The translations under genes were made by a program, and so were the position numbers. DNA of 64,000 nucleotides from Lingula anatina (taxonomy: Eukaryota > Animalia > Brachiopoda): NCBI GenBank assembly GCA_051362555.1, contig CM120648.1, positions 19,650,587 through 19,714,586 on the forward strand. Direction: 5' to 3'. Of this stretch, positions 23,577 through 60,520 are shown piece by piece. How positions within the stretch are numbered: the first letter of the stretch is position 1; each line of letters opens with the position of its first letter. The notes beneath the pieces are model-generated. The model searched no databases. It was not told the DNA's origin and saw nothing but the letters and a program-made list of their open reading frames with translations.

Positions 23577-23624
<48 letters not shown>

Positions 23625-30374: not shown

Positions 30375-30525
30375 AAAATACCGGAACTCGTGTTGCGCAA
30401 AGGATTATGGTCTATATGAATGAGGCGCCATTTTCTTCAACAACCAGGAAGTAACAGGACGGAGATTGTGGGATAATGTTGAACATATTTGACAAAGAAA
30501 GAGATATGATCTGACCGACTTGTAG
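30375..30525 (+). promoter_or_regulatory. Putative promoter / 5' UTR exon of the NHL-ROCO gene
   Basis: ETS-like CCGGAA and CAGGAAGT, YY1-like CGCCATTT, TTGCGCAA palindrome; donor-like AG|GTATAT at 30526 and acceptor TTACAG| at 30620 before the ATG. Confidence 0.4.
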
Positions 30526-30633
30526 GTATATGGAGCAAGTGTTTATGTTACTGTGATCTCCAAGCTGCAGCACCAGAAGTGAACATAAAGTTTAGCAATC
30601 GCTGACAGAAATATTACAGGATCTACTGTCGGA

Positions 30634-31555
30634 ATGGAAGCCATGTTAGGGCAGTCTAGACGAGGTGTAAATCCAAGATCAGGACAGGTGACAGTACAGA
30701 CACAACCTCCATTAGCTGGACAGGAAACAAATACAACATTAGCTACACATCCTAATGTTTTCTTAGAGAAGGCAGAATGTGTGCGTTCCTTCAGTGCTAA
30801 ACTGGAAGATGATAGAATAACTGACATAACTGGGTTAGCCATAGATAAGGAACACATGTTTGTTGTGGATAGATATAACAACAGAACAAAAGTATTCACA
30901 CATGAAGGACAATTTAAGTTTGACATTAAAGTAAACATACCATGGGATGTGGCTGTGTCACAGACTGGTCACCTGTATATAACATCATGGGGTGACAGAT
31001 GTGTCCAAGTGTACTCCACCAGAGGTCAGCAGGTGACAACCATGGGTCAGGGTCTACTGGAGTTACCACGGGGTATTACACTGAACAGACAAGGTCATGT
31101 GATGGTTTGTGACAGTGTAAAGAAGTCCATCTTCACATTCCATGCAGACAGTGGACAGCTCCTGAACACTATTCCACTCAGTATGTGTGAATACCCAGAG
31201 TACATCACAGTGAACAGTGTGAATGATAACATTGTGATATCAGACTTGGACTGTGTACATGTGCTGTCACCTACTGGTGATCATCTGTACCAGTATGACG
31301 ACAGCAGAGAAGGCAGTGGACTGAGTTCACCACGTGGAGTGTGCACAGACAGCTATGGTCACATCTTCATTGCTGACTTTAGTAACCACAGAATAGTGGC
31401 ACTGAGTCCACAGGGACAGTTTATCAGATACATTGTCACTATGGATGATGGGTTGAAGGATCCCAGTGCAGTGGTCATCAACCCTGCTGGTGAACTGGTG
31501 GTGGGAGAGGATGACGGCAATGTTCATGCATTCCAGTACATTGAACTGAAACAAG
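30634..31555 (+). CDS. NHL-repeat (TRIM2/3/71-type) beta-propeller exon
   Basis: Repeats [50 protein letters not shown]; ends at strong phase-1 donor AAG|GTGAGT. Confidence 0.9.
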
Positions 31556-32404
31556 GTGAGTAACATGTATTAACTGTGGATAGATATGTTTATTATGTAA
31601 AAAATTAGAAAGTTTATTAGTTTTACAATGTTTTTATCCATGAATATGTTTGCCTTTATTTCAATAAAAAAAACTTTTAAGCAAATTTAAATTCAGTGAG
31701 CACACAGCTGTGCTTTAGTAAAAATGTATGTAGAGTGGAGACATTTTCTATAGTTAATACTTTACTGTTACTGACAAATTTCTATGAACCCATTATAGTG
31801 ATTAGGATTTTGAATAATGATGAAGAACTCTTTTTAATGGAATTTATAGTATGCTTTATTTGTATTTTTATTAAGTCACAAGAAAAACATCTTACATTGT
31901 TTAATCCCTGAACTTCTTGTCCATTTGTCAGTAAAGAACAAATCAAGTCTCACAACAGAACAGTCCAATTCTTCATATTCTTCATCTTGTAGCTGTTCAT
32001 GAAAGCTTAGATATACCTCAATATATCTCAAATGTACTTTGTCAAGTTTCTCAATGTCTTACCACTTCTAGATTCAAAGACATTTCATCACCAGTTTGTT
32101 GTTAACACACACAAATAAATTAAATGTTGAAGTACTTTGGATGATACCTTATTTTCCTGACTTTATGGATTGTTGTTTGCAAATAAAACTAGCAGACGAC
32201 CATTTTTCATGAAATGGAACTACTTTTTACAGGAAGTAGTGTATTCATACACAACAGTGACCTTGGGTTTGGAATACAAAAAAATAGTACATGCATTCAT
32301 ACTGTCACAGCATGCAAATTATAATGAAATATACAAAACTAAACACATTTTTATGTAACACAAGTTAAATGCATTTTTATTTATTAAAATAATTTATTTA
32401 TTTA

Positions 32405-32447
<43 letters not shown>

Positions 32448-34265
32448 CTGGATAAAAACATTGATGAAATGGTTTTGACCACCTTTTTGGACTTTTTAAA
32501 CTTCATGCTGATAGACCCACATATTTATGTCAAAGGCCCGGACTGAATCTAGTCCCATGCATAAAAAGCCCAGACCCCATGTTTATTACGCCCTGGCTGG
32601 GCCCATTCTTTATGGTGTTTGTTTTGTTAACAGCATAGTGGGCAAGTTAATTGACCAAGTTAATTGGCCAAGCTGCCAGTTTGTTTGTATGGCATGTGCG
32701 GGGGGGGGGGGGGGGGGGGTCTTATAGAATAATAAAATCAGACAGAATATGCTGTGATTCCTAAATAAAATAGATGGGGGGGGGGGGGGGTAGGAGACAC
32801 CAAGGGGCTTATGATTATAAATACCATAGCATTAATAATAATGGTTACATATGCACAACTCCTTCCTTATGTTTAAGTCATAATATGATAAATTCATCTT
32901 ATTATCATGTTGGTGTAATATTTGGCCTTATCAAATATGTTTTTCATTGCATTTAACAAAAATAAGTAAAATGTGTACAAAAGCCTGTTTCAGCAAAATG
33001 GTTAAAATAAATTTTTACTCAGAACATATCTTTGGAAGAACCTGCTAGAGGAGAAGACATATGTTGTGGGAATTATACACCAATATCATATTCACCATAA
33101 ATCATTGACATAAAGAGCTAGTGCATCATATTTATGACCTAAGTTGAAAATGACCCATTATCAGCGGGCGATGTCGATGAGCCAGAAACAACAGAAATGC
33201 CGTTCAGTTCCAAAATCAGAATAGTTGCTTTATTGAATTTCACTTAGATTTTTATTACAGATTACTAGTCAAAATAACATTGTTTCATGTTTATTTCTTT
33301 GACTTTCCACTGAGAAACTCTGGAAGATAACTTTCACACACACCTAATGCATGCCAGCACATCTTCAGCTTTTGACTTCATTCAAGTATGTGTGAATAGA
33401 ATACTTCCACAGTCCCTCAGCTTTACACCTAAATAACCTTATCATAATTAATCTCCTGCTCAAATAAGTTTTGCGCCTCAAAACTTTCACAATTAAAATT
33501 AAATAATCTATTTCCAATAAAATTCTATATCATAACAGTTAAATCATTTTATTTAAAATCATGCTTAATTAAAGATACCTAAACATTATTTAATCATATC
33601 ATATTCTGTTTATATAAAACTTCTCATTACTGTTAGTATGCACACACAAAAAAAAAATTTGAATTAATAAAAAAATTATAAAGTAACATTACATAATACT
33701 CATTCCCTACAGCAAATATACTAAAATTTAACATAACATATCTTAGTTGTATTAATTGGCTATATACTTCTAATTAATACTCCTTCAGTCCTTTAATACA
33801 TATCTCTAAAAAAAATTAACACTAGTTAATCAATTATGATTACTTCCATCTTGTAATCATTATCTTATTTTAAGATAAAATTTATAATCCATTAAAATAT
33901 TTTTAAGCATACATATAAATATATTGTTTATATTAATAAGTTGTCATTCAGTCAATATTTCAGCACAAATAATCATTTAATGTTTATGTAGTATGAAGCA
34001 ACATAACATTTTCACTTAATAAAAAATGTTAATCATTTGCTTACTTATATATCCATATCAGTATCATACAATAAAACTATCATTTAAACTACTCAATTTA
34101 TTAGTAACACTTAAGTATCTTCAGTTCATTCTGTTAAATTGTACCATTTAATATATATTATCCGTTATTGATCAAGGATATTTACTCTTCAACTAATAAT
34201 ATTCACTTCCCATTTCAATAACATTTTAATGATTCCTGTTACAAACAAACCAAAAAAAAAAAAAA

Positions 34266-34314
<49 letters not shown>

Positions 34315-36776
34315 AGTGAAAATACATGCAAAAATATGTGGGTAAATAAAGAAAAATGTTAGTTATAACATTGATAAGCTCATTAAGTTCTATTTAAACT
34401 GAATAATAAATTTATAATTCATTACTTGTTATAAATGTTGTTTAATAGTGAAATAAAACAATTATATAGAAAGTTTAAAAAAATACTAAATCTACTTAAT
34501 TCCTTAACATGACATTAAACAAAACAATATGGCACAATTAAATTTGACTAAATGTAATATATATTTATTACAAACAAAAGCTAGGCATAACAAAACAAGT
34601 GCAGATGAAGCAAGTATTTGAGTAAACCATCCTCCTTTTGTTTATTTACATTAAAACAATCTAATATTGGCACAATGCTAATTTCTCTCCTCTCTTAAAA
34701 AAATATTTATTCAATGATAAACCAGAAATTGATCATGCAGAAAAATGATTCTGGCATCAAAATTTTCTTGGAATATTTTCATTATTTTAAAGTATTTCCA
34801 GCAGTTTATTTGAAACTAAATGGCAAGATAAGAACTTTTTTTTTTTTTGTTGACTTGATTGATAATTTTTATGTACAGACACAGATGTGTCTGTACATAT
34901 AGCCGTCATTTGCGTCTGTCGTCGCCATCGTTGCTGTCGTCGCCGTCGCCGTGCACTTTTACCGATAACACGATAAGTGGAAAACTGTTTTTTCTTTTTG
35001 TTTGAAACTTACAGAACTGATGAATATTCATAATACGCAGGTCAAGTTCGAAAATCAGCATGATCGGGTCACTTATAGGGAATTTGTGCTGTTTTTTCAC
35101 TTTTTTCAGCATATATGCAGCACCGATAACACAATAAGTGGAAAACCATTTTACCTTTTGGCTTGAAACTTAAAGAACTGATGAATATACATAATACGCA
35201 GGTCAAGTTCGAAAATCAGCATGATTGGGTCATTTTTAGTGAATTTAGGCTATTTTTTCTCTATTTTCAGCATAAATACAGCACCGATAACACGATAAGT
35301 GGAAAACCATTTTACCTTTTGGCTTGAAACTTACAGAACTGATGAATATTCATAATACGCAGGTCAAGTTCGAAAATCAGCACGATCGGGTCACTTATAG
35401 GGAATTTATGCTGTTTTTTCACTTTTTTCAGTATATATGCAACACTGATAACACAATATAAGAAAGACAGATTGGCCAATTGTTGTAGAAGTTATGCTGT
35501 TTTTTCACATTTCCTTACATTCAATTCTTAGGCATGTTAACAGTCTCATTATTGAACTAATAAGGTACATAAAAGTGTTTGTTTGACATTTCCTGCATCT
35601 TTACAACATTGTTAGTTGATTTTGTAAAAATGATGGTAAACTTGTTATCATGTATTGTGTAATAAAGTGTCAAAAATGGAAATAAACTCATATCATTGCA
35701 GTTTGTCAGATGCATTCATCCACTATGTTCAGAATCTCAGAATGGAGGAAGTTGGACATTTAACACTGTTCTATTGATACTTTTCCCATCTCATCAATTT
35801 TCTTAGTTGGTCATATAAAAATGGCAGTAAACTGTTTATTTTGTTTTATGTTAAAAAAGTGTTAAAAATGGAAATAAACCCATTTCAGAACAGTGCTGTC
35901 TTGTTTACATTTTGGCATTTTCAAGATGTGACTTTGAAGTTCCATGGGCCTGAAGACTTTTGCTAGTTACATTTTCTGAATAACCATGATACTAATATTT
36001 TATAATTAAAAATTGATGGTCATTATGCTGTAAAACATTATGTAATATTGCATCAAAATTTGAAGAAACCCCTATTTTGGGCACTGCTCCCATGATGACC
36101 ATTTAAGGAAAATCATGTCACTTACTGTTCTCACACTTACAGGAAAGAAACATGGGACTAAAATACAGCTTCAGTAGGCAATGCAGTCTGTTTGGTAAAT
36201 TTTTATGGCAATTAAACAGTTTTTTGTGAAAATTTAATTTTTCACATATTGGCATTTCCAAGGTGTGACTTAGAACCTCCACGGGCTTGAAGACTCATGC
36301 TAGTCACATTTTGTGAAAATCCATGACACTTATATTTTATTATTAAAAATCGATGGTCATTATGCTGTTAAGCATTATGTAATGTTGCATCAAAATAGAA
36401 GAAAACACAATTTTTGGTGCTGCTGCCTTGATGACCATTATGGGAAAACCGTGTTACTTATGACTGTCAAACTTTCAAAAAAGAAACACAGGACTAAAAT
36501 GCAGCCTGAGTTAGAAAAGCAGTCTAATTGGCTTCTTTTTCTGGAAGTTATACATTTTAGTGTAATATTCATTATCTTTTTGGCATATTCATTGTGGGAC
36601 TCGGAGCTCCCAAGGACATGAAGCCAAATGGTAATCATATTTTCTACATGTCCATCCTATTTATAGTCAATAAACAAAAATTGGTGATAATTATTCTCTA
36701 ATTTATTATGTAATGTTACATCAAAATTGACAACAATCTTTTTGCGCTGCTACTGCAAACTTTTAATCTTCCAGTT

Positions 36777-36812
<36 letters not shown>

Positions 36813-39800
36813 AACTGGAAGATTAAAAGTTTGAATAGCATCTTCATTGGAATTATATTTACCTCAAGCTCTGCCAAGAGGGTTATATTTTCACCCCTGT
36901 TTGTCTGTCATCCACATAACACAAAAAGTTATGGACCGATTTTGCAGAAATTTTCAGGAACTGTCAGAAGTGGGCCAAAGAGGACAATGATTAATTTTTG
37001 GTGGTGGTCCGGATCAATAATCAATCAATTATCAATAATAATCAACAATTGCTGCCTTGGCAGAGGTCTGCACTCTCAAAGTGCTTTTCAAGTTTTGTTG
37101 TTTTCCTTTATTATTTTTTCTCAAACACTTGCATTTGTGACTTTTAACTCTCATCTGCCTGGGGCTCTGCACATTTTCTGTATTTCTACATAAGTTGTAT
37201 TGTTTTTTATGTCTTTAAACATTATGTAATATTATTTTATGCACTGTCATCATTTTTCAAATATTGAGACTTTCATAATGTGAATTTGAACTCTCATGGT
37301 CCTGAAACTGTAATCTTATTGTAGGGGTGGATTGAGACCATCTTCTGGGTCTTCCGGAAGACAGTCAGATTATTAAGTTTATATTGACTGGTATCTATTT
37401 TTTTCTGTTGGAAGACCATCAAAATGGAGGATGGATCAACATAGATACTTTGTAATACTGTCAGAAAATATCTCTGGGTCTGCTCCTGTTATTGACCATG
37501 TTACCTGTTGTGCAAGATTAAAATTCAGTGTTGACTGACAGTGCTATTATAAGCATTATTTATTATTGCATCAAAATTGACAAAATGACCTTTTTTGCAA
37601 CTTTATTTTCTGTTTTTTGTCTGTACATTTGACAGCTTTGCTGCCTTGTTATATCTCCCCATTCAAAAATTAATTGTTGGAAAATCTCCTATGTCAATAT
37701 GGTTTCATATGTGACATTGTAATTGTTTGGCTAAAACGTTTTGATGGGCAAAATAATGAACTGCTCTTCTATAGTCAATTCAATAGCAAGACAATTCTTT
37801 GAACTTTTCTTCCTTTTACATACCCCAATCAAGACGGCAATAAGTAAAATAAACTGAGAAACTCTGGAAGATAACTTTCACACACACCTACCCAGCGGGC
37901 AAATCAACATTGAATCAATGTTGAATCAACGTTGATGGTCAACGTTGAAACTATGTTGATATGACGTTGACTATGAAAGTTGACTCAATGTTGAACCATC
38001 AAGGTTGAATCAACCTTGGTCTCAATGTTGAATCAACGTTGATGGTCAACGTTGAAACTATGTTGATATGACATTGACTATGAAAGTTGACTCAATGTTG
38101 AACCATCAAGGTTGAATCAACCTTGAGGTCTCAATGTTGAATCAACGTTGATGGTCAACGTTGAAACTATGTTGATATGACGTTGACTATGAAAGTTGAC
38201 TCAAGGTTGAACCATCAAGGTTGAATCAACCTTGCGGTATCAATATTGAATCAACGTTGACGGTCAACGTTGAAACTATGTTGATATGACGTTGACTATG
38301 AAAGTTGACTCAAGGTTGAACCATCAAGGTTGAATCAACCTTGAGGTATCAATGTTGAATCAACATTGACGGTCAACAAGTTGACTCAACGTTGAACCAT
38401 CAAGGTTGAATCAACCTTGAGGTCTCAATGTTGAATCAACGTTGATATGACGTTGACTATGAAAGTTGAATCAACGTTGAACCATCAAGGTTGAATCAAC
38501 CTTGAGGTATCAATGTTGAATCAATGTTGACAGTCAACATTGAAACTATGTTGATATGACGTTGACTATGAAAGTTGAATCAACGTTGAACCATCAAGGT
38601 TGAATCAACCTTGAACCATCAAGGTTGAAACAACCTTGAGGTATCAATGTTGAATCAACATTGATGCCTCAATGTTGAATCAATGTTGAAATAAAGTTGA
38701 ATTTGAAAATTGAATTAACGTTGATATATCAATTAGGCTATCAGGATATTTGATTGAAATTTGCCTGATGGCTGAAGGTGTTCTCCAAGATATCAAGTAT
38801 TTCTTGAAATAAAAAGACTCAGATCTGAAAAGGGGGGGAAATTAGGAAAATTACCTACAAAAAAAGGTAATTTCGGAAGAAAAGGGGGGGGGGGGTCCAG
38901 ACCCCGGGGCCGGCCCCTGTCTCCACCTATGGGTCGTCAGATTCTTTTTAAACTTTCCAGTTTGATGCTCAGTGTTACGGACCAAAACAGCCCGAACATA
39001 AAAAAACACAAACAACAACTAACTTAACTATGAATATAATATATTACAAACAATGAACATACACTACATAAACTAACTACATGTAATACTATCATGTTGC
39101 ATAAACTTTAACATTTGTCAAATACAGTTAAATTCTAACAGATTCGTAGACAGTTAAGTTTTGAAGACGCAATGTCACAGTTTTACGAGTCCTTTTCTGT
39201 TAAACGTTCCTCCTGATAGTGTGGGGTTTTGAAGACACAATGTCACCATTTTCCATGTCCTTATCTGTTGAACGATCCTCCTGATAGTGTGGCCTCACAA
39301 AGTACTGTTAATAAAGTACAGTTTTTGTACTGTAAAAGTGTTACACACTGTCCACACTCACGTGTTGCATCAGTTCATGTTATCCGGAGTCTCGCACTTA
39401 ATAACAGTCCCGCACTTCATTTACATTATACAAGTATGCAGGCACATACGATAATTCCTCATAAAAATTAAACAACAAATTAGCTTTACTAAAATAATTA
39501 TAACGTCACATCAGGTAGTTAAGATAATTTTAAGAATACAAAAACAAAGGGTCACCAGTCTAATTTTTTTTCTCACAGCTAACTTAAATTTCCAGAAAAA
39601 CAGGCATTTTTGGCTTTTTCAAGCTTTTTCTTCAACCTTGAGTAAAATTTTGTCAATTTGCCATAAAGTAAGGCTGGTGACCCTATGTTTTTTTTTCTTT
39701 TTCTTAAAGATAACCTGTGGAAAGTTTAAAAAAAAAACTGACGACCGCTTTTTTCACAAAATTAATTTTAATGAAAAAGGGGTAAAACAAGCGTTTTATG

Positions 39801-42800
39801 AGGGGTAATTACCCCTATGCATACCTCTCTAGTGAGATAATCATTTAAAACTATTATCAAGGTTATGATTAAGGTTATAAAGTTAAGGTTGGCCCAATGT
39901 TGAGATCCAGTTGATATGTCAACATTGACAAAGGGTTTACAAACACAGGTTGATTCAATGTTGAAATCCTGTTGATCTATCAACATTGAAAACTGATTGA
40001 CAAAGAAAGGTAAAATCAATGTTGAGACCCTGTTGATCTATCAACATTGACAATTGGTTGACAAGAAAAGGTTGATTCAATGTTGAAATCCTGTTGATCT
40101 ATCAACATTGAAAATTGATTGACAAAGAAAGGTTAAATCAATGTTGAGACCCTGTTGATCTATCAACATTGACAATTGGTTGACAAGAAAAGGTTGATTC
40201 AATGTTGAGATCTTGTTGATCTATCAATATTGATGGATCAACATCATCTCAACCTATCCTCAATGTTGAATCAACGTTGAGTGCCCGCTGGGTAATGCAT
40301 GCCAGCACATCTTCAGCTTTTGACTTCATTCAAGTATGTGTGAATAGAATACTTCCACAGTCCCTCAGCTTTACACCTAAATAACCTAATCATACCATCG
40401 TAACAGCTAGAAATAGGTACTTTTTGGACACATAATTGGCCATATTTTTGTAAATTGTAGTCTGATTATTATAATTCTTTTTTTATTTTGCTCCTATGAA
40501 CAGTGTCTTTGATATCAGTCAATCAGCAATCTCTAATCATAAATTGTTAATTTATCAGACACTTGTAACATTAACCATATTTAATTGTTCACCCTGATGG
40601 GTAAGTATGGAAAAATTGTCCTTTACCCCAGTAAATTTTTTTTTTTTTTTTTTGGGGGGGGGGGGGGGGGAGGGCAAAATAAACAGTTGTTATCTCTTTA
40701 ATTTGAGGATGTTATTGTACAATAACAGTACAATTTACAACATCTGCACAGTGCATGTGTCCTGCCAGATACCAGTAATGATACATTACAGATGTGTATG
40801 CCACTGATAACTACCATGTAAAACTAAAATAGAAAAATAATTATTTTGGAGATTTGAGGACATAAGAAGTTCAACTTGGAACCAGCTATGGGAATGATAG
40901 TCCGGTGGCTTAAGGAAAAAATCGTGACACGGCGGATAAAAGCACCAAATTTGGCATGTAGTTACCTTTTGACAGTATAAATCAAATTAGAGCCGTAGCC
41001 CTCTCAAACAGTTTACCGTTTGGTCAAAAAATCCAAAATGGCCGCCAATTTATAGAATTCTATAGAAATATGTACATACCTATGTTGATTTTTATCAAAT
41101 AAATTATTTCCCCAGAGTTTTCCACACCCTTATTACCCATTTTATTCATATATGTCTGATAGCAAACAAGTTCCCTTGGACTTTTTGAAAAAATCCAAGA
41201 TGGCTGTCATATGCCATACAAACAGCCATAGGAATACTAGTGCACAACTAATACCAGCTAGAAAGACACGTTGTCCACTATCAAATTAAGTCTGTTTCTC
41301 AGATTTTTGTTACCCATATGTTTTGTTACCACATATGTTTGTGGTGAGTAACTACGAAGTGTTCTTGGGCATTTTGGAAAATCCAAGATGGCTGCCATGT
41401 GCCACAAGAATTCTAGTATACGGGGGATTTAACTAATGGCAACTGAAAAGATTAATTTTCCACTATCAAATTAAGTTTGTTTCTGAGTTTTTTCCACATC
41501 CATCCACACAATATGTATGTGGTGAGGAACTAACATGTATTCTTGGGCATTTAGAGAAAATCCAAGATGGTCGCCATATGTCATAGGAATACTGCTAGTA
41601 TTACAAAGGGTTGGAAATAATGCCAGCTAGGAAAAACATAATTCATTATCAAGTTCAGTTTATTTTTTCAGTGTTTTACACATTATTATTACACTGTGAT
41701 ACATATCTAGCAGGTAATAAATGTGCATAAGATGGCTGTCATTAGCCATAGGAATACAACTGGAATAACAAGTACTACCAGGGTGAAATTGTGTTTGCTT
41801 ATCAAGTTTTGCCCATCCTTATTAGTCCTATGATATATATCTGTTGGGTAAATAGTGTGCATCCTTGGATATTTTGAGAAAATCCAAGATACATGTATCT
41901 TCAATTTGACATGGGAATACTAATGGGTGGGTTTCAATTGCTGCTAGAGAGGCATATGGTTCACTATACAATTACATTCCCATGGGTTTGTTTTAAAAAT
42001 AATATATTTTTTTCATTCCATTTATTATTACCCCTATGATGTATACCTGGTCTGTAGCATGTGTGTATCTTTGGGTATTCTGAAAAAAAATCAAGATGTC
42101 TGCCTTTTGTCATTAGAACATTCGTACACATAATCAAATAATGCCAGAGACACACTTAGTACAATTTAAATGTAGTTAACTTTAGATCGTATTTAAATGT
42201 TTTTCATATCCTATTTATCCTTATGAAAGGTTCTGTGTGTGTAGAAAGTGTATGTATCCTTGAGTACTATTCGGAGAAAACCCAAGATAGCTGCCAGTTG
42301 TCATAGGAATATATCATTCAAATGCACATAGGTGTCAATTAATGGAACAGTTCAGACATTGATTCCAACATGAAATAAAGCCGTTCAAACATGTTGACAT
42401 CCTTATTAACCTTACTCTATATAAATCTGGTGTGTAGCAAGTGTGCATCTTGCGTATTAAAGAAAATTCAAGATTGCTGCAATTCACAATAGGATTAGTA
42501 GGCCTACAGTCAACTACTTCGGGTTCAATATAAAATGAATTTTGTTTCTTGGTATTTCCCACATTCTTTTTGGACTCTGAGATATCTATCTGGTGGGTAA
42601 CAAGTGTGTACCCTTAAGTATTTTGACAAAATATCATGATTACCCTCATTTGCCTTAGAAGTGCCTAAAATCCAATGCACCAGCTTTCCTATGGGGAAAA
42701 GAAGGCCATCTTGGATTTCCCCAAAATGATCAAATATAGACATTAATTACCTAACAAATATGTATCATGGGTTAATGATAATAATAATAACAATAATAAA

Positions 42801-43626
42801 AATAATTAACAGAATAACAACTGAATTCAGCTTCATTTTATATGGAAGCCTATCTCTCCCAGGTATTAACTGAACCCCACCTTCTATGGCTAGTGGCAGC
42901 CATTTTGTTTTGTTTTGTTTTCAAAAAGGACACATATAACATTCTCATCACATATATTATGTGGATTAAAAAGATGTGGAAAATACTCAGAAACAAACTT
43001 AATTTATTAATTGATATCATATCTCCATTGCAGAAGAAGTCCTATGTGTATACTAGTATTCCTTTGATATGGCGGCCATCTTGAGAATAAACGTTAGTTA
43101 CTTACCACAAATATATTATTTGTGTAATAAGTCACTCAGAAACAAAATTAATTAGATAGTGGGCAATGTATCTTCCTATAGTTGGCATTAGTTGAAAACC
43201 CTTGTACATGTTCTAGTATTCCTATGCCATACAGCGGCCATCTTGGATTTTTCAAAAAGTCCAAGGACACTCGTTTGTTATCTGACATAAATGCATAATA
43301 TGGGTAATAAGGAAGTGGAAAACATTGAGAAAATACTTTATTTGATACAAATCAACATAGGTATGGATATATTTCTACAGAATTTCATAAATGGCGGCCA
43401 TTTTGGGTTTTTTGGCCAAACGGTAACTTTTTTCCGTGGGCTACGGCTCTAATTTGATTTAGTATGTCAAAAGGTACCCACATGCAAAATTTGGTGCTTT
43501 TATCCGCCGTGTCACGATTTGGTCATTTTTTTACCCTAAGCCACCGGACTATGACAGATGCATGGCTGTGTACTGCATTTCTTGTTAAACATTTTTAATC
43601 ATTCTCATACCATCTTTATTTTTTTC

Positions 43627-43661
<35 letters not shown>

Positions 43662-46600
43662 CTAGGTATTTTTTTCTTTTTTTGTGGATCTGAAATATTC
43701 CATTTTAAATATCCACTTTGTATTTGAAACAATATAGTGATGTTTGGTTGAGTTTTGTAGCAGAACTATGACTGAAAATGCAGCTTTAATGTTTCAGATC
43801 AGTTTTCAGAGGAAATCAATAGACAAGACCCACTACTGCAAGAAGCATATCAACGAGCATGTAAGGATGGCTTTGAAAGAGTGAAGAGGGCCAGGGTGAT
43901 GCTACTGGGCCATTACGGTGCAGGTAAAACACACCTGAGAAAAAGGCTACTGGGAAAGGAATATGATGAAGATAAAGATCCAATCACTAATGGTATAGAA
44001 ACTGACTACGTTCTTGTAAAGGAGGGTTGGAATTCAGATGAAGCTGGTAAGAATAACTGTACAAGAATTAAAAAGTGTTTCAATATTGAAATTCATTTAC
44101 TTCATATATTTCAACTCTTAATATATGACTTGAAGATTTATTAATCTGCAAGGACAATTCTTTCAATTCCTCCTTGTTTATCATTTATTAACAGCAACTA
44201 GATCACCTCAATCTCTTTGTATTTCATGACAAATAATAAAATTATTATTTTAATTTATAGAGTGTCATGGGCCAGCAATATCACATTTGCTTGCTGTTAA
44301 CACGAGAAAGATACATGAGGAAATCCGGGCAAGTCATGCAGGTAATTCCTGAGTGTACAACTAACTACTAGAACTAGAACATGTTTACAGTATATGTAAA
44401 GTGTTGACATGATTAACTGCAGAAACATTTTCTAATTTGAAACAAGAAAGTAATTAATCATAAAAACTTAAGATTGTATTATAAATATATGATATGCATA
44501 TTCTTAGAATAATTTTAATGAACATTTGATTAATTTGAATTTTTGAATGAATTATTGTAGAGTTACAACCCTTGGGTCAAGTTGTGCAGGCAACTAATGC
44601 ACCAACATCAGAGAAAGTGGAGAAATGTAAGTACTATGATACTCAAAATATAGAGATGTAGTGGTATAAAACTTGCGGGAACATGAGATAGCTCAAGTCA
44701 GTAGTTTCTATACATGGGATAAACAAAAAGAAGAAACAATTAGAAAAGAAGAAAAAAATTGATCGAACCATATGTTTGTTAGTGTTCATTCAAATGTTTC
44801 TTAGTGTTCTTTCTTTTAAAAAAAGGATATTATGACAAAACATCAGTCTAAGCAAATACTTTGGAGTGATCATGAATAATGTTATCTTGAAGTACTCTGT
44901 AGAAGAATCCCAATTGTGATGATATCTTTGTGTGTCAGAATGCCATTTAGAACAATCCTTAGTCTGTTTCCATTTTACAGTGTACGAAATAAGGACCGAC
45001 CGGCAGCCCGGGACGGCTCAGTTATCACCCGGGCGGTCTCTTTCCAAAAGTTGCCAGTCCGTCGGTCTGGCCATTTTCTGGCCTCTAAAATAATTGTAAA
45101 TCAAAATGCAAGTTCATATTAAGCAGATTTGGTTGAAATAAAACGAAAACAATGAGGCTTACCCTTCAAGAAATCGACACTCGCAACAAATGAACGAAAA
45201 CCGAAAGTACATGCTTATTCACCGTTTTCCCGACATGCCTAGCGCAAAGACCCTTCACCGTGTTATGAAACGTCTGATACAAAGTATCAAACGCGTCATT
45301 AATATGCTTGTTTACGAGACAAGTTACGAACGATGTGTGGTCATTCAAGTTCATACAATCTCGTCTAATTACGCAGTTTAATGTTTGCTTCTTCTATAAT
45401 CTGTAATTATAATTGTACGATGTCTTTCTCATAAAAAAATTTAATTGAATGACGTCACAACGCACGTGGATTGCGCCTAAGTCGTAGTCAGGATTACCCC
45501 TGTCGCAGTCTACCCTCTGTAGGCCTAAGTATTTTGGTGCTAATAATGAATGTGATGCACCAGCACGTAAGAAAAGAACACAGGAAGGTATCACACAATC
45601 AAATAAAGTGTATGATGACACCAAAGCAGGGCTCCATAGGTAAAAATTCAGTTCGGACAAGAGAATTGGCAGGGTGAGCTGTCCGACGGACAGGTTATGT
45701 TTTATTAGAACTTAAGAACAAAAATCTTGAAAAATAATTTTTTGCTGCATACTAACGTCTTCTCGTCTCTTCCTGGATTGCATTGAAAAGAGTGACCTAC
45801 ATTTGGTACAAAACACGTGGTCCCAAAACGAAGTCTAGCAAACTTACCGCCAAATTATGAAAGTGAACACCTTCCAGGACTTCACAACTTCAAGACAAAA
45901 TTTATTCACATAACAGGCTGACTACTGAATATTTATTTGTTTAAAAATCAACGTGCTCTAGTAACAAAGACCGTTCCTAAAATAGAAACTACACAAGTAC
46001 TGGGTACAAAAGCCAGATTGGACTGGATGTATCTAGTTTGTTGTCAAGGCAACATACTGCCTGTCAATCAAATGTGTTGCACGCTATCTCCTTACAACTA
46101 TTTTAATTTGGAGAGTCAAACTTTGGGACTGAAGATCTTGTTGAACTGTTGTTTATTTGCATAACCTGAAATTTTGTCAGATGTTTAATTTAATGACTCT
46201 AGCACCACCTGTGTTATTTACAGTTCAAAATTTAGTGCTGGAATTTGATAAATTAGCAATGCTATTACATACCAGTGTGGTATTGATGCAAGGAAGAAAA
46301 TTAGTAATAAAAATATGAGAATTTATATAAATAAGAAGGGGGGATCTTTTAAAGACTGATTTTATTTAATTCAATCTGTATATTTAAAAAATCAAACACA
46401 TGTTACCCCTAAAGAAACCAAATTGTTATTATAAATAACAATTTAAAAACTTTAAAATTAGTGATATTTATATAAGTAAACTATTGTACAATGAATATTC
46501 TTCAATTTTAAATAAAATTTATTCAAATATAAATTTTGAATATTTTAATAAAAAAATATAACACTGCCCCCCCCCCCCCCCACCTCCAGCTCAGTATTTT

Positions 46601-49248
46601 TTTAAAGACTTAGTTAAACTTCATGTGATAAGACTGATAGTTAAAAGGTCAAACTTTTTTGCAAGACCTATCGAAGTGTATTTGCACCATTGGTTTCTAG
46701 TCAACAACCAGAAAGATTTCATAAGTATGCCCATGGAACATTTGTAACAAGCGGTTCATGCAACTAGACTGATTATGACAGTCACAGTGAATCAGAATTT
46801 TCTGATTTGGGTTCAGAGCATAACGTTTCAGATGCTGTCAGGGAAGAATCTACTTGAATAAATTCACATTGAGACTAAGAGTCCTTGTTTCAATATCGTT
46901 CTTGCCTGCAATTGGTTTAATCAGGTAATTTTCAAAAAAAATTCAGGACTGGCTACTTTTGGTCAGGGCTGGCTACTTTTCAAGTTGCCAGCCCTGCTGT
47001 CCGGCTTCAAATTTATACGAATTTCATACCCTGCATTTTATATATTTATTTATTTATTATTACATTTTGTTATTTAACTATTACACCACAACCCACTTTA
47101 AGTACAAATGGCAGTGATGGATCAAAATGCATACTGATTGTAAGAAAAAATACTGAATATTTCATTTACCCACATCATCTTATCTTGTTATATATATGTT
47201 GTACCACACAGATACATTAGTCCTTTACTTTTTTTCTTGAAAAGCCACATCGAAGTCTCCAGAAATGCAGTCTGATGTTATTCAAGAGAAAATTATAGCA
47301 GGTATATCAAACATTATACAAATATGAAGAAAAGAAAACCATTAAAATACGGGGCACACCTCCCCTCACAATAGAGGACACCTCTGCTCACAATAGGAGA
47401 ATGTGTAAGGGGAGACAACTTAATTGGCTGTCAGACCAGAAATGGCCTTACTCATGTTTTAAGATCATGTAAGACTATTTGTGATCTTAATTTGCACTTT
47501 AAGACCAAATCAAGCCCACTAGTGGCACATGAGTATTATGACGGAGCATAAAGATTACAAGTTGCATAGTTATATGAGATCTTAATTTTATAGGTTTTTG
47601 GTGGATAATGCATAAAGATGCACACTGCACAAGTAGAAAAGATCTAAACGTGTATTTAATTTGCATTGTTTCTCTCTTTTTATGGCAAGTTGCTCCAAAA
47701 CTTGAAGATGAGAACACTTTATCAACAGGTGGACAAATTTCGGCATCACAGGACAAGGAAAGGGGTACAGTAGGGTTTTTCACATCTTAGAAATTTGTTG
47801 CAATTATCTTAACCCATAATAAACTGCTATCAATATGTAATGACAGAACATTATGCACAGTAAGGCAGGTAGTCTATTTCCCCTGAATCAAAAGTAGTAT
47901 AACAATAAGACAAGACATATTACCATGCAGTTTTCTACTGGGTATCTATCTGTACTACAAATTTTGTTAAAATATCCTTGTCTACTATAAATATGGCAAT
48001 TTTTTTTTATTCTCAATGCGTCTCACCCACATTAGCATAGTATGTTATGGCATAAGGTAATGGCTTCATCATTTCAAACTTGGAATTAATGAATTTAGCA
48101 GATACTGTATTTTTTAAGTAACAAATTCTAAAATTAGAACATTCATATTTAATGGTAACAACACAATTGAAAAGCAGACACCCTAACAGTTCTTTTCTAT
48201 ACAGTAGAAGCACCAAAATGCTACATTAGAAATTGTCATTTATTTCAAAATTATAGGACCATTCCCAGACCCTATCATACTAACTTTGGATTGATCTATC
48301 TCTTACGGGATTCTTGCTAAATTGTAATTAGCTAAAATGACTTAGAAGTCTGTCACACCTACTGAAGCTGACAGTGGTAATTAACTATCCCTGAGCAGCT
48401 TTAGTAGGCATTCGAGACATCTAAGCTGCTTAAGCTTAAAGCAATATATAGTGAGAAACCCCTTGGAGATGGACCAATCCTGTTAGATAGATCTAGGTAT
48501 GGGAACCCAGTCTATGTCTCTGTTGAAATGATCAAGCCATCACCGTGTAAACCCCTCTAGCTTTTATACTGTAGTTCTTACAAGTAATTGATTAGATTTG
48601 TGTGTATTCATTTTTAATACTGAAATATGTAAACTGTGTATATTTATATTTTTAGAACATCAGCCCAGCCCTATTAGTTCCAAGGAGGCTTTGTCCCATT
48701 TAAAAACAGAGGAGAGTATGGAGCTCCCGCCTGATGTCTTAACACATTTGACAGAAAGCTCATACGACATTGAAAATCCACCAGCTCGTCTAGCAGTCTG
48801 GGATTTTGGAGGGCAAAGTGTGTATTACAACACCCACCACACTTTCCTTTCTTCCAGAGCTATTTACATTCTTGCCATTGATATGAGCCTTGCTTTAACA
48901 GACAGGCTTGACGACCAATGGCATGGTGCTGAACACTTCTCAGGAACTATTCTTGGTAAGGAATCCGCCAGCTCACAATTGTGCTTCAGTTAGTGAGTAT
49001 ATAATTAATATTCAGTTGTACAAGTGTTTCATCAAATCATTTTAGTACCAATTGTGTTGCTGTATACCAGCTAGCAGATATGAAATGGTGATTGTAGTTA
49101 AAATTCTTAAATTGAATCTGGTTTGCTCAAAATTAATATATGTCTCAGTAAAATTTGGTCTTGTTTATCTATTTATATAATTGTTGTTTTCACGTAGCAT
49201 TTTCAGGGCTTGCTTGGGAACAAAGCACTATTACTAGTAAATATTACT

Positions 49249-49296
<48 letters not shown>

Positions 49297-51230
49297 CCAT
49301 AGAATACTCATATTTCATCATTTTAGTGAGACAGCTTTCTATACTCAAACAGATCAAACAGCAAAAAGTGACAGTAAAGTACATTTTGAAATGTGTCTGA
49401 TATATTTCCAGACTTTACTTATTACTGGATAGATGCAATCCATACTTATGCGCAACAGCAAAACATGAGTGAAGATGGGGTATCTTCCCCCCGAATAATC
49501 ATTGCTTGCACACATAAAGACAAATACCTGGAAAATGTTCCCAAAGAAAAGGTAGGCATTAGTACTGAAACAAACAAAAATAATAATAATAATAAATTTA
49601 TTAATTAAATTAAACTGTTTGTTCTTAAAAAATAGTTATGACAATTGACTGATAAAATATGTGATTGAAGCTTGCTTGCAGTGTGTTGATAAACTGTTTC
49701 TCCCATTCTCTTACAGCATGAAGAAGAAATAAATGCATACTTTGATAAATTGCGGCAGCATATACAACAGAAGAGAAGTGGTGTGCATGTTGATCCTCGT
49801 TTCTTTGCAATTGACAACACATGTCAAGATGAAGATCAAGAAATATCTGATCTCCGTCGATATATTATGAAAATTGCTGAAAGCCAAAAATCTTGGGGAG
49901 AGAAGAATCCAATAAGATGGATTAGATTAGAAGAAGATCTTCAGCTGCGACGAGCACCCGAGAAACGAGGAAAAAGGTGGATAAGGTATGAGGAGCTGCA
50001 AAATTTAGCTCTTAAAGTTGGAATGCAGGATGCCATTGAGCTGAAGTCATTCCTCCAGTTCCATCATGACATTGGAGATCTTATGCACTTTCAGACTGAT
50101 GATCTCTCTGACACTGTCATTTTGAATCCAACATGGCTGATAGATGCATTCAGGTCTATTATAGCAGTTGATAAACACCATGTCAAAGCCAAAGGGACTC
50201 CTTATTGGTCTGCATTAAAGAGGGGCATCTTAGATGAAAGACTTCTGGATGAGCTATGGGGAGATGATAGTGAGTTGAAGTCCATTGTAATCGGTGTTAT
50301 GGTACAATTCAACATTCTTTTGCAACAGGATGTCAAGCCAGGTACAACAGAAAAGCCTACTTCTCGACAGTTCTATGTGCCCAGCTTACTTCAGGTATGC
50401 AAGAATCCAGAATCTGGGGTTGGCAGTGAAGGAACACTATTCATACAAGGGAAAGAGAACTTTATGCCACATGTGCTTTTCAACCGTCTCACAGTGAAGT
50501 TAGTCCAAAATGACACTTCTACAGGAAGAAAAGGTTTAAGAAGAAGAGGTGACTTTTTCCTCATTAAAAATGAGCTGTACTATGATTATGCTGTATATGC
50601 AATCGATCCACGCAGAGGAGCGCGTTGTGCTTTGAGAAAGTCAACAAAAACCTCTTGCATTGAACTAATTCCCTTATATCCCCCAGCAACAAAGTTTGAC
50701 AAAACAATCCGAGGGGCATATGCTAAGTGGAAGAACCATGTTTTGATGCAAATTCAGCATGTTAAGCAGACCGTCTGCCCAAATTTGCGACTAGAATGGT
50801 GTGTCAGAGACCCGAGAAAGCCAAAAGTCAGAGAGGAGCTGATGGCAATAGATCCGAAGGAGTCTGATCTCACAGCATGTGGGCTACCTGAGGATTCAGT
50901 GTACAGACTGTGGTTTATGCCAGACTCGAGTGAGAAGGTAAGTCATGTAAATATATAATGGAAGCGTGGCTCAGTCATAACTTCAACATGAATATTAAAT
51001 GTATTTTTGTGACAGAAATATATTTGATTTTAAATAAATGAATGCTCAAAGTATTTGATCACTGGGTTTCTTTTATATTGGATATTTTAATATTTAAAAA
51101 TGTATCTTTGTGAAATGTATTTTGTTTGTAAGTAAATGGGTAGTCTATCTATCTGATTACTGGTTTTCTTTTATTCAATAGGAGCATGGTGTTACTGAAC
51201 CCTCCATGAGATTACCAAGTGATGCTGGAG
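30634..51230 (+). CDS. ROCO-family GTPase with N-terminal NHL beta-propeller (NHL-Roc-COR; C-terminus not resolved)
   Basis: join 30634-31555, 43798-44046, 44261-44341, 44561-44626, 47245-47301, 47690-47764, 48656-48955, 49412-49551, 49717-50937, 51182-51230; all phases compatible (about 1050 aa open). G1 GHYGAGKT, G2 TNGIE, G3 WDFGGQ..YY.TH..FL, G4 THKD, COR P..WI.LE / L.F.HDIGD / VILNPTWL / FYVPSLL. Confidence 0.75.
33230..34720 (-). mobile_element. Heavily decayed L1/Tx1-like LINE ORF2 3' remnant (probably continues to about 37850, split by the HINE)
   Basis: Minus-strand fragments EDV.HAL.VCE (zinc-knuckle-like), FYWK, K.KGG; TTTATT near the left end. Confidence 0.4.
34869..37650 (+). 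mobile_element. HINE copy 2
   Basis: Same termini and body as 2061-5145, with a different number of core repeats and an internal deletion. Confidence 0.87.
37891..40292. mobile_element. EnSpm/CACTA-type (CCC-ended) non-autonomous element with long subterminal TCAACGTTGA arrays
   Basis: TIR CCCAGCGGGCA / TGCCCGCTGGG, TA TSD; empty site visible in the paralogous segment at about 33309-33440. Confidence 0.85.
40898..43551. mobile_element. Academ-like non-autonomous DNA transposon with long TIRs
   Basis: TAGTCCGGTGGCTTA ... TAAGCCACCGGACTA, imperfect TIRs of several hundred bp, TGA 3-bp TSD, many AATCCAAGATGGC motifs. Confidence 0.8.
43798..44046 (+). CDS. Roc GTPase exon with P-loop ([13 protein letters not shown]...TNGIE)
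   Basis: tttcag| phase 1 ... |gtaaga; Roc-type leader [11 protein letters not shown]. Confidence 0.9.
44978..47033. mobile_element. hAT-like non-autonomous element with 7-bp TSD
   Basis: TIR CAGTGTACGAAAT / ATTTCATACCCTG; CATTTTA on both sides. Confidence 0.75.
48656..48955 (+). CDS. Roc exon with G3 ([25 protein letters not shown])
   Basis: ttttag| ... |gtaagg; canonical Roc motif. Confidence 0.92.
49412..49551 (+). CDS. Roc exon with G4 (YWIDAIH...IIIACTHKD)
   Basis: ttccag| ... |gtaggc. Confidence 0.9.
49717..50937 (+). CDS. Roc G5 plus COR domain exon
   Basis: ttacag| ... |gtaagt; 407 open codons with COR motifs. Confidence 0.92.
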
Positions 51231-55100: not shown

Positions 55101-55637
55101 TAGTTACTGTTAGTGTATCACTAATTTCCAGTTTTGTAATTGTATTTCTGACTCGATTCCGTTTTTCCAAGTTGATAAAGTAATTTGTATTGCGTTCGCC
55201 CTTTTCGTACCATCTCACTTTACTACGCATTATTGCACCTTCAGTTTTAGCTTCTAAGATTAAATCATGTTCAGTCTTAAGTTTTTCTAATTCTTTAGCT
55301 TTTTCTTTATTAAATTGATTGTCTATCTCGGCCTGTAGCACGTTGATTTTTTTCCAAATGTCTCTTTCATTTTCTCTATGTTGTTTAGATTTTTGCTTTG
55401 AAAATTTTATTGAAAACTGCCGTATTTCCATTGTTATCATATCAAATGCTAAACCACGGTCCTCTAAGTAATTGTATCTGTTTTTTGCTTCATTAATTAC
55501 ATTTTTCATTTCGTTAATATATCTTTCGTCTCCTAGTAAAGTATTATTGTGTTTCCAAAACCCTCGCCCTCTAACTGTCACATCTTTTGTCTTTAAAAAC
55601 AAAGATATTGCATCATGATCAGTGTAAGGTGCGTAAG
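52106..55637 (-). mobile_element. 5'-truncated L1/Tx1-clade LINE with intact RT
   Basis: 13-bp TSD GAATTAATGCAAT (52093-52105 / 55638-55650), AATAAA plus poly(A) tail, truncation inside the endonuclease near its TDH motif. Confidence 0.95.
52552..55602 (-). CDS. LINE ORF2 (end of APE, reverse transcriptase, C-terminal CCHC)
   Basis: 1016 aa open; PGVDG, NWRPISLL, LDFKKAFD, GVRQGCPLS, YADD, CTNC..ETIIHRFVEC. Confidence 0.95.
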   Translation of the reverse strand: MFLKTKDVTVRGRGFWKHNNTLLGDERYINEMKNVINEAKNRYNYLEDRGLAFDMITMEIRQFSIKFSKQKSKQHRENERDIWKKINVLQAEIDNQFNKEKAKELEKLKTEHDLILEAKTEGAIMRSKVRWYEKGERNTNYFINLEKRNRVRNTITKLEISDTLTVTNDKDILQEQEKFYENLYTSQNTTINERISNKFFNVQNIPQIPNDLKISCEGKLTINECKNALKELTKKKNKTPGVDGLSAEFYMKFWEELGEEIADCLNFAFETGQLNISQRQGIITLIPKKDKDRHRLENWRPISLLSVSYKIAAKALAKRMETTLPTIINKNQTGYVKKRYIGENIRLIWDLMYSTKRQNKEGMAIFLDFKKAFDCIEWEFIKKCLKIFNFGPDFIQWFDIMYANASSCITNNGYSSRFFSITRGVRQGCPLSGPLFVLAVEILACAIRADPSIRGITIDRHEHKLCQYADDTTLFLNDVRSAKNALKLISEFKQISGLELNLSKSEALWLGSNRFNNEKPLGLLWPDRPIKALGIHFSYDYESCRFLDFDSKVDQIEKLLNLWSSRDLTWIGKIQILKTLGLAKLVYANTVLETPNDIILRIDALFKKFLWNDKKTKLKQNTLIAPKSKGGLNLTHVPSHVRSLKASMVKRIMLADNDDPWVINILKYLRSVGGKLIFSCNYELKNINISDMPPYYVAMLDAWSDLIQTDPNNASDIKKQIIWNNRFILVNKKSIYLRHWSKAGVNYIQDIININGEFISLEEIINQHNFAIKLLNFLEYEKVKKSIPISWLRKLRENAETVDNTDSDEIVWTLASTKTIYDKLIERNVINLPTASLHLIKSGISENDWQRVFLIPFESVKETQLQVMQYRIIHNVLYTNSTLFKMKIVTSPGCTNCHMKETIIHRFVECVRARNFWIAFENWWNIPNNTIHFRKNEKTIMHGCLSSDQRVKALNFCIIVAKQFINKNSENPSVYDFELFLHFLSQKKKIEKYIAIKTGKEDRFNTKWKRIPTITC

Positions 55638-60208: not shown

Positions 60209-60312
60209 CCCAGACAGCCTCAGTAATCTGGCCCAGATCTGGCCCAGATCTGGCAACGTCTGGCAATATCTGGGCCAGATTTTGCCAGACACTTGCCAGA
60301 TCTGGGCCAGAT
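60209..60312. mobile_element. Left end of another CCC-ended (EnSpm-like) element
   Basis: CCCAGACAGC followed by tandem TCTGGCCCAGA subterminal motifs; other end not found. Confidence 0.45.
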
Positions 60313-60520
60313 GAAAAAAGCACAAGCTTATCAAACTGATACAATTCGTTGAGTGATTTTATTCGTGATGCGATTTATTTCGAAGGCATCAACACTGGCG
60401 ACGAGGATTAACACTAGTGCAAAACTGTGAGCCAATTTTCTTTGAGAAAATGGAGGAAAAATGTGAAAATACGAAATTCGAACCGTAGGCCTACAGAATA
60501 AAGTGTTTATGCGAGCTATC

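What the first reader, a model, noticed from the sequence alone, without database searches (positions are those of the whole stretch)
30634..51230. NHL beta-propeller fused to Roc-COR: an unusual ROCO architecture
Seen: the NHL ORF ends at a consensus phase-1 donor, and the next recognisable coding exon, 12.2 kb downstream across transposon-filled sequence, is a phase-1 Roc exon with no own start nearby. The join is open through all G motifs and COR. Known: ROCO proteins (LRRK, DAPK1, MFHAS1) usually carry LRR, ankyrin, kinase, WD40 or death domains, and NHL propellers bind RNA or proteins in TRIM-NHL proteins. Inference: exon shuffling replaced the usual sensor with an NHL domain from an expanded TRIM-NHL-like family, giving a candidate innate-immune or RNA-sensing GTPase switch.
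Basis: partly seen in the sequence, partly recalled or inferred. Interest (0 to 1): 0.7.

Follow-up and report, generated by a model that had tools for sequence, protein, structure and literature searches.

The report
Hypervariable NHL-sensor Roco GTPase family
This lamp-shell (brachiopod) DNA has ten exons that read in frame as a six-bladed NHL propeller joined to an LRRK2-type Roc-COR GTPase; its relatives vary almost only on one face of the propeller and attach it to different back ends, so it is likely a member of an untested family of intracellular immune sensors built on a GTP switch.

Summary
Confirmed. Ten GT-AG exons (30634-51230) read as an open 1053-aa NHL-Roc-COR protein. It is 91% identical to an uncharacterised Lingula anatina RefSeq model with the same exons, and three RefSeq models carry this NHL-to-Roc join. 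The NHL exon defines a family of about 11 loci. It forms one clade against the species' TRIM-type NHLs, and its start codon sits where TRIM genes have LEAMLG. It is grafted in phase 1 onto two different Roc GTPases and a Q-rich tail; RNA reads show the join to the second Roc type. Among nine paralogues, highly variable positions lie on the loops of the ligand face (26 of 70) and never on the opposite face (0 of 52), while Roc and COR-A stay 95-99% identical. That face has no conserved basic patch, so RNA sensing is disfavoured. Bivalves also carry propeller-Roc-COR proteins with CARD, Death, TIR or HEPN tails. Best reading: an NLR-like sensor-switch-effector immune receptor built on a Roco GTPase. 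Reads across this locus's own junction were not obtained, and no effector exon lies in the window. The architecture is in databases but I found no description in print.

The parts
30430..30633 (+). Transcribed 5' leader of exon 1 (family reads begin about 30430-30456); holds two short uORFs; last codons resemble the TRIM-NHL linker (…[11 protein letters not shown] vs …ISTVGLEAMLG)
30634..31555 (+). Exon 1 CDS: 40-aa disordered leader + six-bladed NHL beta-propeller; phase-1 donor
   Evidence: pLDDT 87, 24 strands; TRIM3 NHL E 8e-21
31556..43797 (+). Intron 1, 12.2 kb: tandem arrays (34961-35458, 37902-38702, 39895-40233), dispersed repeat, inverted-repeat element 40912-43527; no coding exon found
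43798..44046 (+). Exon 2 (phase 1-1): helix alpha0, G1 P-loop GHYGAGKT, switch I (ITNGI)
44261..44341 (+). Exon 3 (phase 1-1), start of the low-confidence insert in Roc
44561..44626 (+). Exon 4 (phase 1-1), insert
47245..47301 (+). Exon 5 (phase 1-1), insert
47690..47764 (+). Exon 6 (phase 1-1), insert
48656..48955 (+). Exon 7 (phase 1-1): G3/switch II WDFGGQ
49412..49551 (+). Exon 8 (phase 1-0): G4 THKD
49717..50937 (+). Exon 9 (phase 0-0): end of Roc, COR-A and predicted COR-B
51182..51230 (+). Exon 10 (phase 0-1): linker; in paralogues a ZU5 module follows; no further exon found in the window
52552..55743 (-). LINE-type reverse-transcriptase ORF (1063 aa) lying downstream of exon 10, possibly inside the next intron

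Best explanation
These ten exons read in frame as an NHL propeller fused to a Roc-COR GTPase with intact nucleotide-binding motifs, and the protein likely works as an NLR-like intracellular immune receptor: a fast-diversifying propeller face would bind a ligand, and the Roc-COR unit would pass this on to a swappable C-terminal effector. Steps. (1) Shown: the architecture, the paralogue family and the one-face hypervariability. (2) Inferred origin: a 5'-truncated copy of a Lingula TRIM-NHL gene gained a start codon at the LEAMLG linker and a phase-1 donor at its end. It was then spliced onto at least three back ends: Roc type A (this gene), Roc type B and a Q-rich tail with a weak CARD-like hit. 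(3) Inferred mechanism, by analogy with C. tepidum Roco and LRRK2: ligand binding would shift the GTP/GDP-linked monomer-dimer cycle through helix alpha0 and switch II, and so release or cluster the effector. In type-A paralogues the module after COR is ZU5; this locus's effector lies outside the window or is missing. (4) The ligand is more likely varied foreign or damaged proteins than a fixed RNA motif.
For: Open 10-exon model, 91% to RefSeq LOC106168600. Same join in 3 RefSeq models; NHL-to-RocB in 2; NHL-to-Q-rich tail in 1 locus. Nine reads in run X4 continue past the exon-1 donor into letters that I read by hand as FNERLRRLCE, the RocB exon-2 start. Depth drops from 19-27 to 1.4 past the donor in stranded run X4. 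The exon-1 family is one clade, 99/96, against 20 other Lingula NHLs. Columns with 4 or more residues among 9 paralogues: 26 of 70 on d-a/b-c loops vs 0 of 52 on a-b/c-d loops (Fisher P 5e-8; entropy test P 6e-10). Propeller identity 77-87% vs Roc/COR-A 95-99% in close paralogues. 27 of 29 displayed coding read variants are non-synonymous. Related invertebrate Roc-CORs carry Death, CARD, TIR, HEPN, caspase, GT4, trypsin or OTU tails. Kaur et al. 2021 describe the same variable-sensor/AP-GTPase-COR/variable-effector logic in bacteria (PMC8195603 section 15).
Against: No read was laid across 31555-43798 or on the Roc-COR exons, so splicing and expression of this locus are not shown. At 31528 none of the 19 X4 reads carries the window's base, so the reads there come from paralogues or other alleles. 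RefSeq models can be chimeric: two family models run into an Endonuclease V and an EXS gene. Four RefSeq models stop just after exon 1. No effector exon was found in 51231-64000. No codon-based selection test was possible. Human TRIM NHLs also differ at the top opening without a known receptor role (PMC9634614 passages). The read variants mix paralogues, and only 40 of 360 rows were shown. No functional or infection data exist. The model of the full-length paralogue has pTM 0.55 and does not show how the NHL packs on Roc.
Confidence: 0.62

Rival explanations
1. The fused gene is real but works as an RNA-binding regulator, like Brat or LIN-41/TRIM71, with the GTPase gating RNA control.
For: The propeller folds like RNA-binding NHLs (Brat, LIN-41). 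TRIM56's NHL-like domain is linked to antiviral RNA binding (PMC9634614 passage).
Against: The closest folds are TRIM2/3, for which Brat-like RNA binding is judged unlikely. The 26 variable top-face sites have no conserved basic residue: K+R ranges 3-7, D+E 1-7, and this copy is net acidic.
Confidence: 0.1
2. The gene is real, but the variability reflects relaxed selection and gene conversion in a young duplicated family, or non-immune roles such as self-recognition or endogenous partner diversity.
For: Family members are young and mosaic: the window shares COR-B residues 913-931 with P0228/P0230 but other parts with P0003. Surface loops tolerate change.
Against: The equally exposed opposite-face loops are almost invariant (mean entropy 0.07-0.15 vs 0.90-1.29). 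Changes are radical and repeat at the same position in each of six blades. All G motifs are intact.
Confidence: 0.18
3. At this locus the NHL exon is expressed alone (read-through ending ELKQGE-stop), or the Roc-COR part is a decaying copy cut off by transposons, so the fusion protein is not made here.
For: The intron is 12 kb and repeat-filled; a LINE lies after exon 10; no effector exon is found. Four RefSeq models are exon-1-only. The join of this locus is not shown by reads.
Against: 1053 codons are open with canonical splice sites. The same join is in three paralogous models. Family reads almost stop at the donor. No other first exon was found in the intron.
Confidence: 0.1

Closest known systems
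AP-GTPase (Roc)-COR counter-invader proteins of bacteria (Kaur, Iyer, Burroughs, Aravind 2021, PMC8195603; section 15 and passages read)
   Same: Fast-evolving N-terminal repeat sensor, Roc-COR core, variable C-terminal effector, several paralogues per genome.
   Different: Their sensor is LRR and the hosts are prokaryotes; 'NHL' occurs 0 times in the main text. Here the sensor is an NHL propeller taken from an animal TRIM family and moved as one phase-1 exon.
Brown-algal LRR-ROCO candidate immune receptors (Teng et al. 2024, PMC11378527; abstract and section 14 read)
   Same: Expanded ROCO family, exon shuffling and diversifying selection in the sensor, immune role proposed but untested.
   Different: They shuffle single LRR exons. 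Here the whole sensor is one exon, diversified by substitution on one propeller face and grafted onto different back ends.
Group 1-3 Roco proteins: CtRoco, MFHAS1, LRRK1/2, DAPK1 (PMC6337361 and PMC4104024, passages read)
   Same: Roc G1-G4 motifs, alpha0 helix, COR tandem; sequence hits (4wnr E 8e-16, 3dpu 5e-11) and fold hits (3dpu, 6hlu, LRRK1, LRRK2).
   Different: No LRR, ankyrin or kinase; N-terminal NHL; insert of about 130 aa inside Roc on four small phase-1 exons. 'NHL' occurs 0 times in the main text of PMC4104024, and no passage with it was returned for PMC6337361.
TRIM-NHL proteins (TRIM2/3, Brat, LIN-41/TRIM71; PMC9634614 passages read) and the Lingula TRIM-NHL expansion
   Same: Six-bladed NHL fold (TRIM3 Z 35.7, rmsd 2.3, 258 aligned); 60-69% identity to the closest Lingula TRIM-NHLs; same loops vary in those TRIMs.
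   Different: No RING, B-box or coiled coil; the propeller is N-terminal and feeds a GTPase instead of an E3 ligase.
Unnamed bivalve propeller-Roc-COR proteins (Sinanodonta, Potamilus, Saccostrea) and Aplysia ROCO-TIR proteins (PMC9334734 passages read)
   Same: NHL-like propeller, then Roc-COR, then CARD, Death, TIR or HEPN; their Roc-COR clade is sister to the Lingula type A (UFBoot 96).
   Different: Their propellers are other, divergent NHL-like subtypes; the Aplysia paper lists LRR, Neuralized, MBT and EF-hand partners, not NHL, in the passages seen.

Membership tests
ROCO family | Roc domain with G1-G4 motifs | tested here: met
   Pfam Roc 42.7 bits on the 91%-identical paralogue (cut-off 27); [17 protein letters not shown] in the window model
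ROCO family | COR domain directly after Roc (COR-A and COR-B) | tested here: met
   COR-A E 8e-19 on the window ORF. COR-B has no Pfam hit, but the paralogue model aligns to CtRoco RocCOR over 714 columns, TM 0.69 by target
ROCO family | GTP binding/hydrolysis and nucleotide-dependent dimer cycle | not testable with these tools
   Needs purified protein
Described Roco groups 1-3 | N-terminal LRR (groups 1, 2), or kinase with death domain (DAPK1 group) | tested here: not met
   No LRR, kinase or death hit in the window ORFs or paralogue P0003; anything beyond exon 10 is unknown
NHL propeller domain | Six four-stranded blades with NHL repeats | tested here: met
   Pfam NHL E 4e-20; 24 strands in the model; top Foldseek hit TRIM3 NHL
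TRIM-NHL proteins | N-terminal RING, B-box, coiled coil | tested here: not met
   tblastn of three TRIM paralogues matches only 30622 onward; reads start about 200 nt upstream with no upstream joint listed
RNA-binding NHLs (LIN-41/Brat type) | Conserved basic top surface | tested here: not met
   No conserved K/R among 26 variable top-face sites; this copy 4 K/R vs 7 D/E. Sequence-level test only; no electrostatic map
NLRs (STAND receptors) | NACHT or NB-ARC ATPase core | tested here: not met
   Core is a Roc GTPase; the claim is 'works like', not 'is'
AP-GTPase sensor-switch-effector conflict proteins | Rapidly evolving N-terminal sensor | tested here: met
   26 of 70 vs 0 of 52; 77-87% vs 95-99% identity
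AP-GTPase sensor-switch-effector conflict proteins | Variable C-terminal effector | tested here: inconclusive
   ZU5 in type-A paralogues and a different tail in P0052; none found for this locus inside the window

The most novel reading that the evidence does not exclude
Lophotrochozoans have an undescribed NLR-equivalent receptor class in which hypervariable NHL propellers are captured again and again from each lineage's own TRIM-NHL expansion and plugged, as a single exon, onto Roc-COR GTPase switches with death-fold, ZU5, TIR or HEPN outputs. In Lingula the capture took one new start codon and one phase-1 donor, and the same sensor exon now serves at least three back ends.
Probability: 0.45. 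Interest if true: 0.8.

Novelty: new variant of a known kind. Interest (0 to 1): 0.6.

Why it matters
How invertebrates without antibodies recognise diverse intracellular pathogens is an open question, and so is what switches on a Roco GTPase in nature. This family offers one constant Roc-COR core with a panel of natural sensor variants that differ at about 30 positions on one face. That makes ligand-gated Roco activation directly testable by swapping one exon. It would also add NHL propellers, known mainly as RNA or substrate binders of TRIM ligases, to the list of diversified immune sensor folds, and it catches a domain-shuffling event with its footprints still readable.

Tried and rejected
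No RNA holder was listed for exon 1 in the run index; nine 2026 runs were offered by species label only. The exon-1 read-through ORF is not in the protein collection letter for letter. Another first exon, or a RocB or Q-rich exon, inside intron 1: none found (tblastn; 0 of 46 ORFs with Pfam hits). Effector exon in 51231-64000: paralogue tails gave no hit better than E 2 there; 2 of 39 ORFs had weak transmembrane-family hits below cut-off, taken as chance. The trypsin-like look of the P0052 tail (recalled His/Asp/Ser motifs) got no support from Pfam, PDB or BLASTP against a Trypsin_2-bearing Roco. The CARD hit on P0004 is below cut-off (E 0.0085). VIA-align listed only propeller matches, so it is inconclusive for Roc-COR. 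Literature: 8 searches found no paper describing NHL with Roc-COR; one search returned 0 papers. The Lingula genome paper has 'NHL' 0 times in the main text and its one held supplement. The Lingula immune-gene survey (Gerdol et al. 2018, recalled) is not in the library and could mention this family. The supplementary architecture tables of PMC8195603 were not opened. PMC12373286 had no occurrence of the terms. The first two searches of earlier scan notes found nothing. No complex prediction was run.
Full report
1. Observation. The window is animal DNA. An ORF from ATG 30634 encodes NHL repeats (Pfam E 4e-20). Three later ORFs hit Roc (E 5e-4, 6e-7) and COR-A (E 8e-19). Ten exons (30634-31555, 43798-44046, 44261-44341, 44561-44626, 47245-47301, 47690-47764, 48656-48955, 49412-49551, 49717-50937, 51182-51230) all have AG/GT ends and give 1053 codons without a stop. 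Introns 1-7 are phase 1. G1 GHYGAGKT (345), G3 WDFGG (532) and G4 THKD (617) are present. Intron 1 carries tandem arrays, dispersed repeats and an element with long inverted ends, 40912-43527. None of its 46 ORFs of 55 aa or more hits Pfam.

2. Is the join real? A search for longer relatives of exon 1 returned Lingula anatina RefSeq proteins as the top 22 of 48 hits, so the window is inferred to be Lingula. LOC106168600 (P0003, 1064 aa; NHL, Roc, COR-A) maps onto the same ten exons and is 966 of 1060 identical to the model. LOC106157232 (P0069) and LOC106163476 (P0228) have the same join, with Asp at the junction as the window predicts. LOC106157232 is numbered next to LOC106157231 (Roc-COR-ZU5) and both lie on a 571,818-base contig, so they are probably one gene split in two models. 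RNA reads from four runs were laid on exon 1 at 90% likeness: 26, 403, 389 and 339 reads. The stranded run X4 is in the sense direction. Reads start about 30430-30456. Depth falls from 19-27 to 1.4 past the donor. Nine X4 reads run on past 31561 (agreement 0.67) into letters that read, by hand, FNERLRRLCE, which is exon 2 of the second Roc type (P0002, P0067). So an NHL-to-Roc splice is seen in RNA for a paralogue type. For this locus it is not shown: no reads were laid on the Roc-COR exons, 54 loose-end rows were not displayed, and at 31528 all 19 X4 reads carry another base. RefSeq joins can be wrong: P0051 and P0234 run into Endonuclease V and EXS genes. I put the fused transcript at this locus at about 0.9.

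3. The family. Twelve stored proteins begin MEAMLGQS; two are isoforms, so about 11 loci, some possibly alleles. After exon 1 come Roc type A in 3, Roc type B in 2 (about 43-48% identical to type A in the matched exons), a Q-rich tail with a sub-threshold CARD hit in 1 locus, donor read-through in 4, and one partial. In a tree of 29 near-complete Lingula propellers (fragments left out), the 9 exon-1 rows form one clade (99/96) against 20 others, most of which carry RING/B-box. The bootstrap had not settled and the root is a midpoint. Type A and type B carriers are mixed within the clade, with weak support. TRIM paralogues have …ST[VAD]GLEAMLGQV… where the window has …[12 protein letters not shown]…. 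A TRIM-type read end shows GGA CTG GAA GCC ATG against the window's GGA ATG GAA GCC ATG, one base apart. No RING/B-box relic is found upstream. Inference: a truncated TRIM-NHL copy gained a start and a phase-1 donor and became a portable first exon.

4. One-face hypervariability. The AlphaFold2 model of exon 1 (pLDDT 87) has six four-stranded blades and matches TRIM2/3 NHL best (Z 35.7 for the paralogue model). Among 9 complete paralogues, 191 of 307 columns are invariant, while 33 have four or more residues, recurring at the same places in each blade. With loops classed from the DSSP order, d-a and b-c loops hold 26 such columns of 70 and a-b and c-d loops 0 of 52 (Fisher P 5e-8). The cut-off was chosen after seeing the data; the cut-off-free entropy test gives P 6e-10. 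That d-a/b-c loops form the top face is recalled propeller topology; PMC9634614 (passages) places ligand binding at the top surface. Twenty TRIM-type NHLs show the same bias (entropy 1.58 and 1.99 vs 0.63 and 0.95). Against P0003 and P0069 the propeller is 87% and 77% identical, while Roc exon 2 is 98% and 95%; COR-A is 98-99% in four close paralogues and 78% in the more distant P0052. Of 29 coding read variants among the 40 rows displayed (360 in all), 27 change the residue; one scores as a stop alone but pairs with its neighbour to give Tyr. This is suggestive only. The variable sites are rich in aromatic and charged residues with no conserved basic patch, unlike TRIM71/LIN-41.

5. The wider picture. 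A search of 1.84 billion representatives with P0003 listed 150 rows, 74 of them Roc-type. Six of the 74 have an N-terminal propeller by local HMMs. They are named as Sinanodonta, Potamilus and Saccostrea proteins and end in CARD, HEPN, Death or TIR. Two more Sinanodonta cases came (P0054, P0058). Only the Saccostrea one matches the Lingula NHL profile well (domain E 3e-12). The Sinanodonta-type propeller groups with mollusc clusters of which 24-32% carry Pfam NHL (scores 0.93-0.95), which is a lead. The other 30 Roc rows scanned (36 of 74 were scanned) have ankyrin, LRR, Neuralized, SH2, Macro, RRM/KH, Bcl-2, EH, TAZ, DED/OTU or unassigned N-termini, with Death, TIR, caspase, GT4 or trypsin tails in many. 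In a Roc-COR tree of 42 rows (3 of 44 chosen proteins dropped for lacking the anchor motif or length), Lingula type A is sister (96) to a clade that holds the bivalve propeller forms along with SH2, RRM, EH and ankyrin forms. Repeated capture fits the distinct propeller subtypes, but one ancient fusion with later sensor replacement is not excluded.

6. Mechanism. Shown: fold, motifs, family, variability pattern. From literature (PMC6337361 passages): helix alpha0 links the N-terminal repeat domain to Roc, and nucleotide-dependent oligomer changes in CtRoco are relayed through switch II. Inferred: the propeller sits in the LRR's place, binds a variable ligand and biases the GTP cycle, which controls an effector after COR. 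Type-A paralogues carry ZU5 there. For this locus exon 10 ends in a phase-1 donor, a LINE follows, and no effector exon is found up to 64000; read-through would end two codons later. The full-length paralogue model (pTM 0.55) matches CtRoco, LRRK1 and LRRK2 folds but gives no reliable domain packing.

7. Comparison and novelty. It is a ROCO member by Roc and COR. It is not a member of the three described Roco groups, of TRIM-NHL or of NLRs. It is laid out like the bacterial AP-GTPase conflict proteins of Kaur et al. (PMC8195603 section 15) and like brown-algal ROCO candidates (PMC11378527 abstract and section 14). Aplysia ROCO-TIR proteins have been noted (PMC9334734 passages). Eight literature searches found no description of NHL-Roc-COR; the library lacks most subscription papers, including the Lingula immune survey I recall. 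Earlier scan notes on bacterial and protist WD40-Roc-COR proteins point the same way; they are unchecked and not counted as support.

8. Verdict. A real gene of a small, young, expressed family; a new variant of the Roco sensor-switch-effector theme. Interest 0.6; immune-receptor reading 0.62.

Noticed in passing
window 22662-23735 (- strand): Exons of a short-chain dehydrogenase/reductase gene (adh_short E 2e-7), divergently oriented upstream of the NHL-Roco gene.
   Followed up: no
window 52552-55743 (- strand): Open 1063-aa LINE reverse-transcriptase ORF (RVT_1 E 9e-36, zf-RVT), apparently 5'-truncated, 1.3 kb after exon 10.
   Followed up: partly
window 30476-30514 and 30530-30556: Two short upstream ORFs (12 and 8 codons) in the transcribed leader of exon 1; they could damp translation.
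   Followed up: no
window exon 9, model residues 856-1037: COR-B, the dimer-forming half in CtRoco, is more variable among close paralogues (86-89%) than COR-A (98-99%) and is mosaic: residues 913-931 match P0228/P0230, not P0003. It may set dimer specificity or reflect gene conversion.
   Followed up: partly
P0049, P0050, P0229, P0233, P0234 (ZU5 tails): The ZU5 ends in QFCKH, with Cys where self-cleaving ZU5/FIIND domains have Phe-Ser (recalled motif); self-cleavage untested.
   Followed up: no
P0052 residues 760-1027: A more distant type-A paralogue has a different tail with trypsin-like His/Asp/Ser-looking motifs (recalled); no database support.
   Followed up: partly
Lingula TRIM-NHL proteins P0005-P0022, P0072-P0087: The parent TRIM-NHL expansion (30 or more models) shows the same top-face variability, so these E3 ligases may themselves be diversified sensors.
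   Followed up: partly
window 34865-37618 vs 2057-5100 and 51432-51825: Copies of the same dispersed repeat, 75-98% identical.
   Followed up: no
P0095, P0106: Unnamed Roc-COR proteins ending in a caspase domain, one also with an N-terminal Bcl-2 domain.
   Followed up: no
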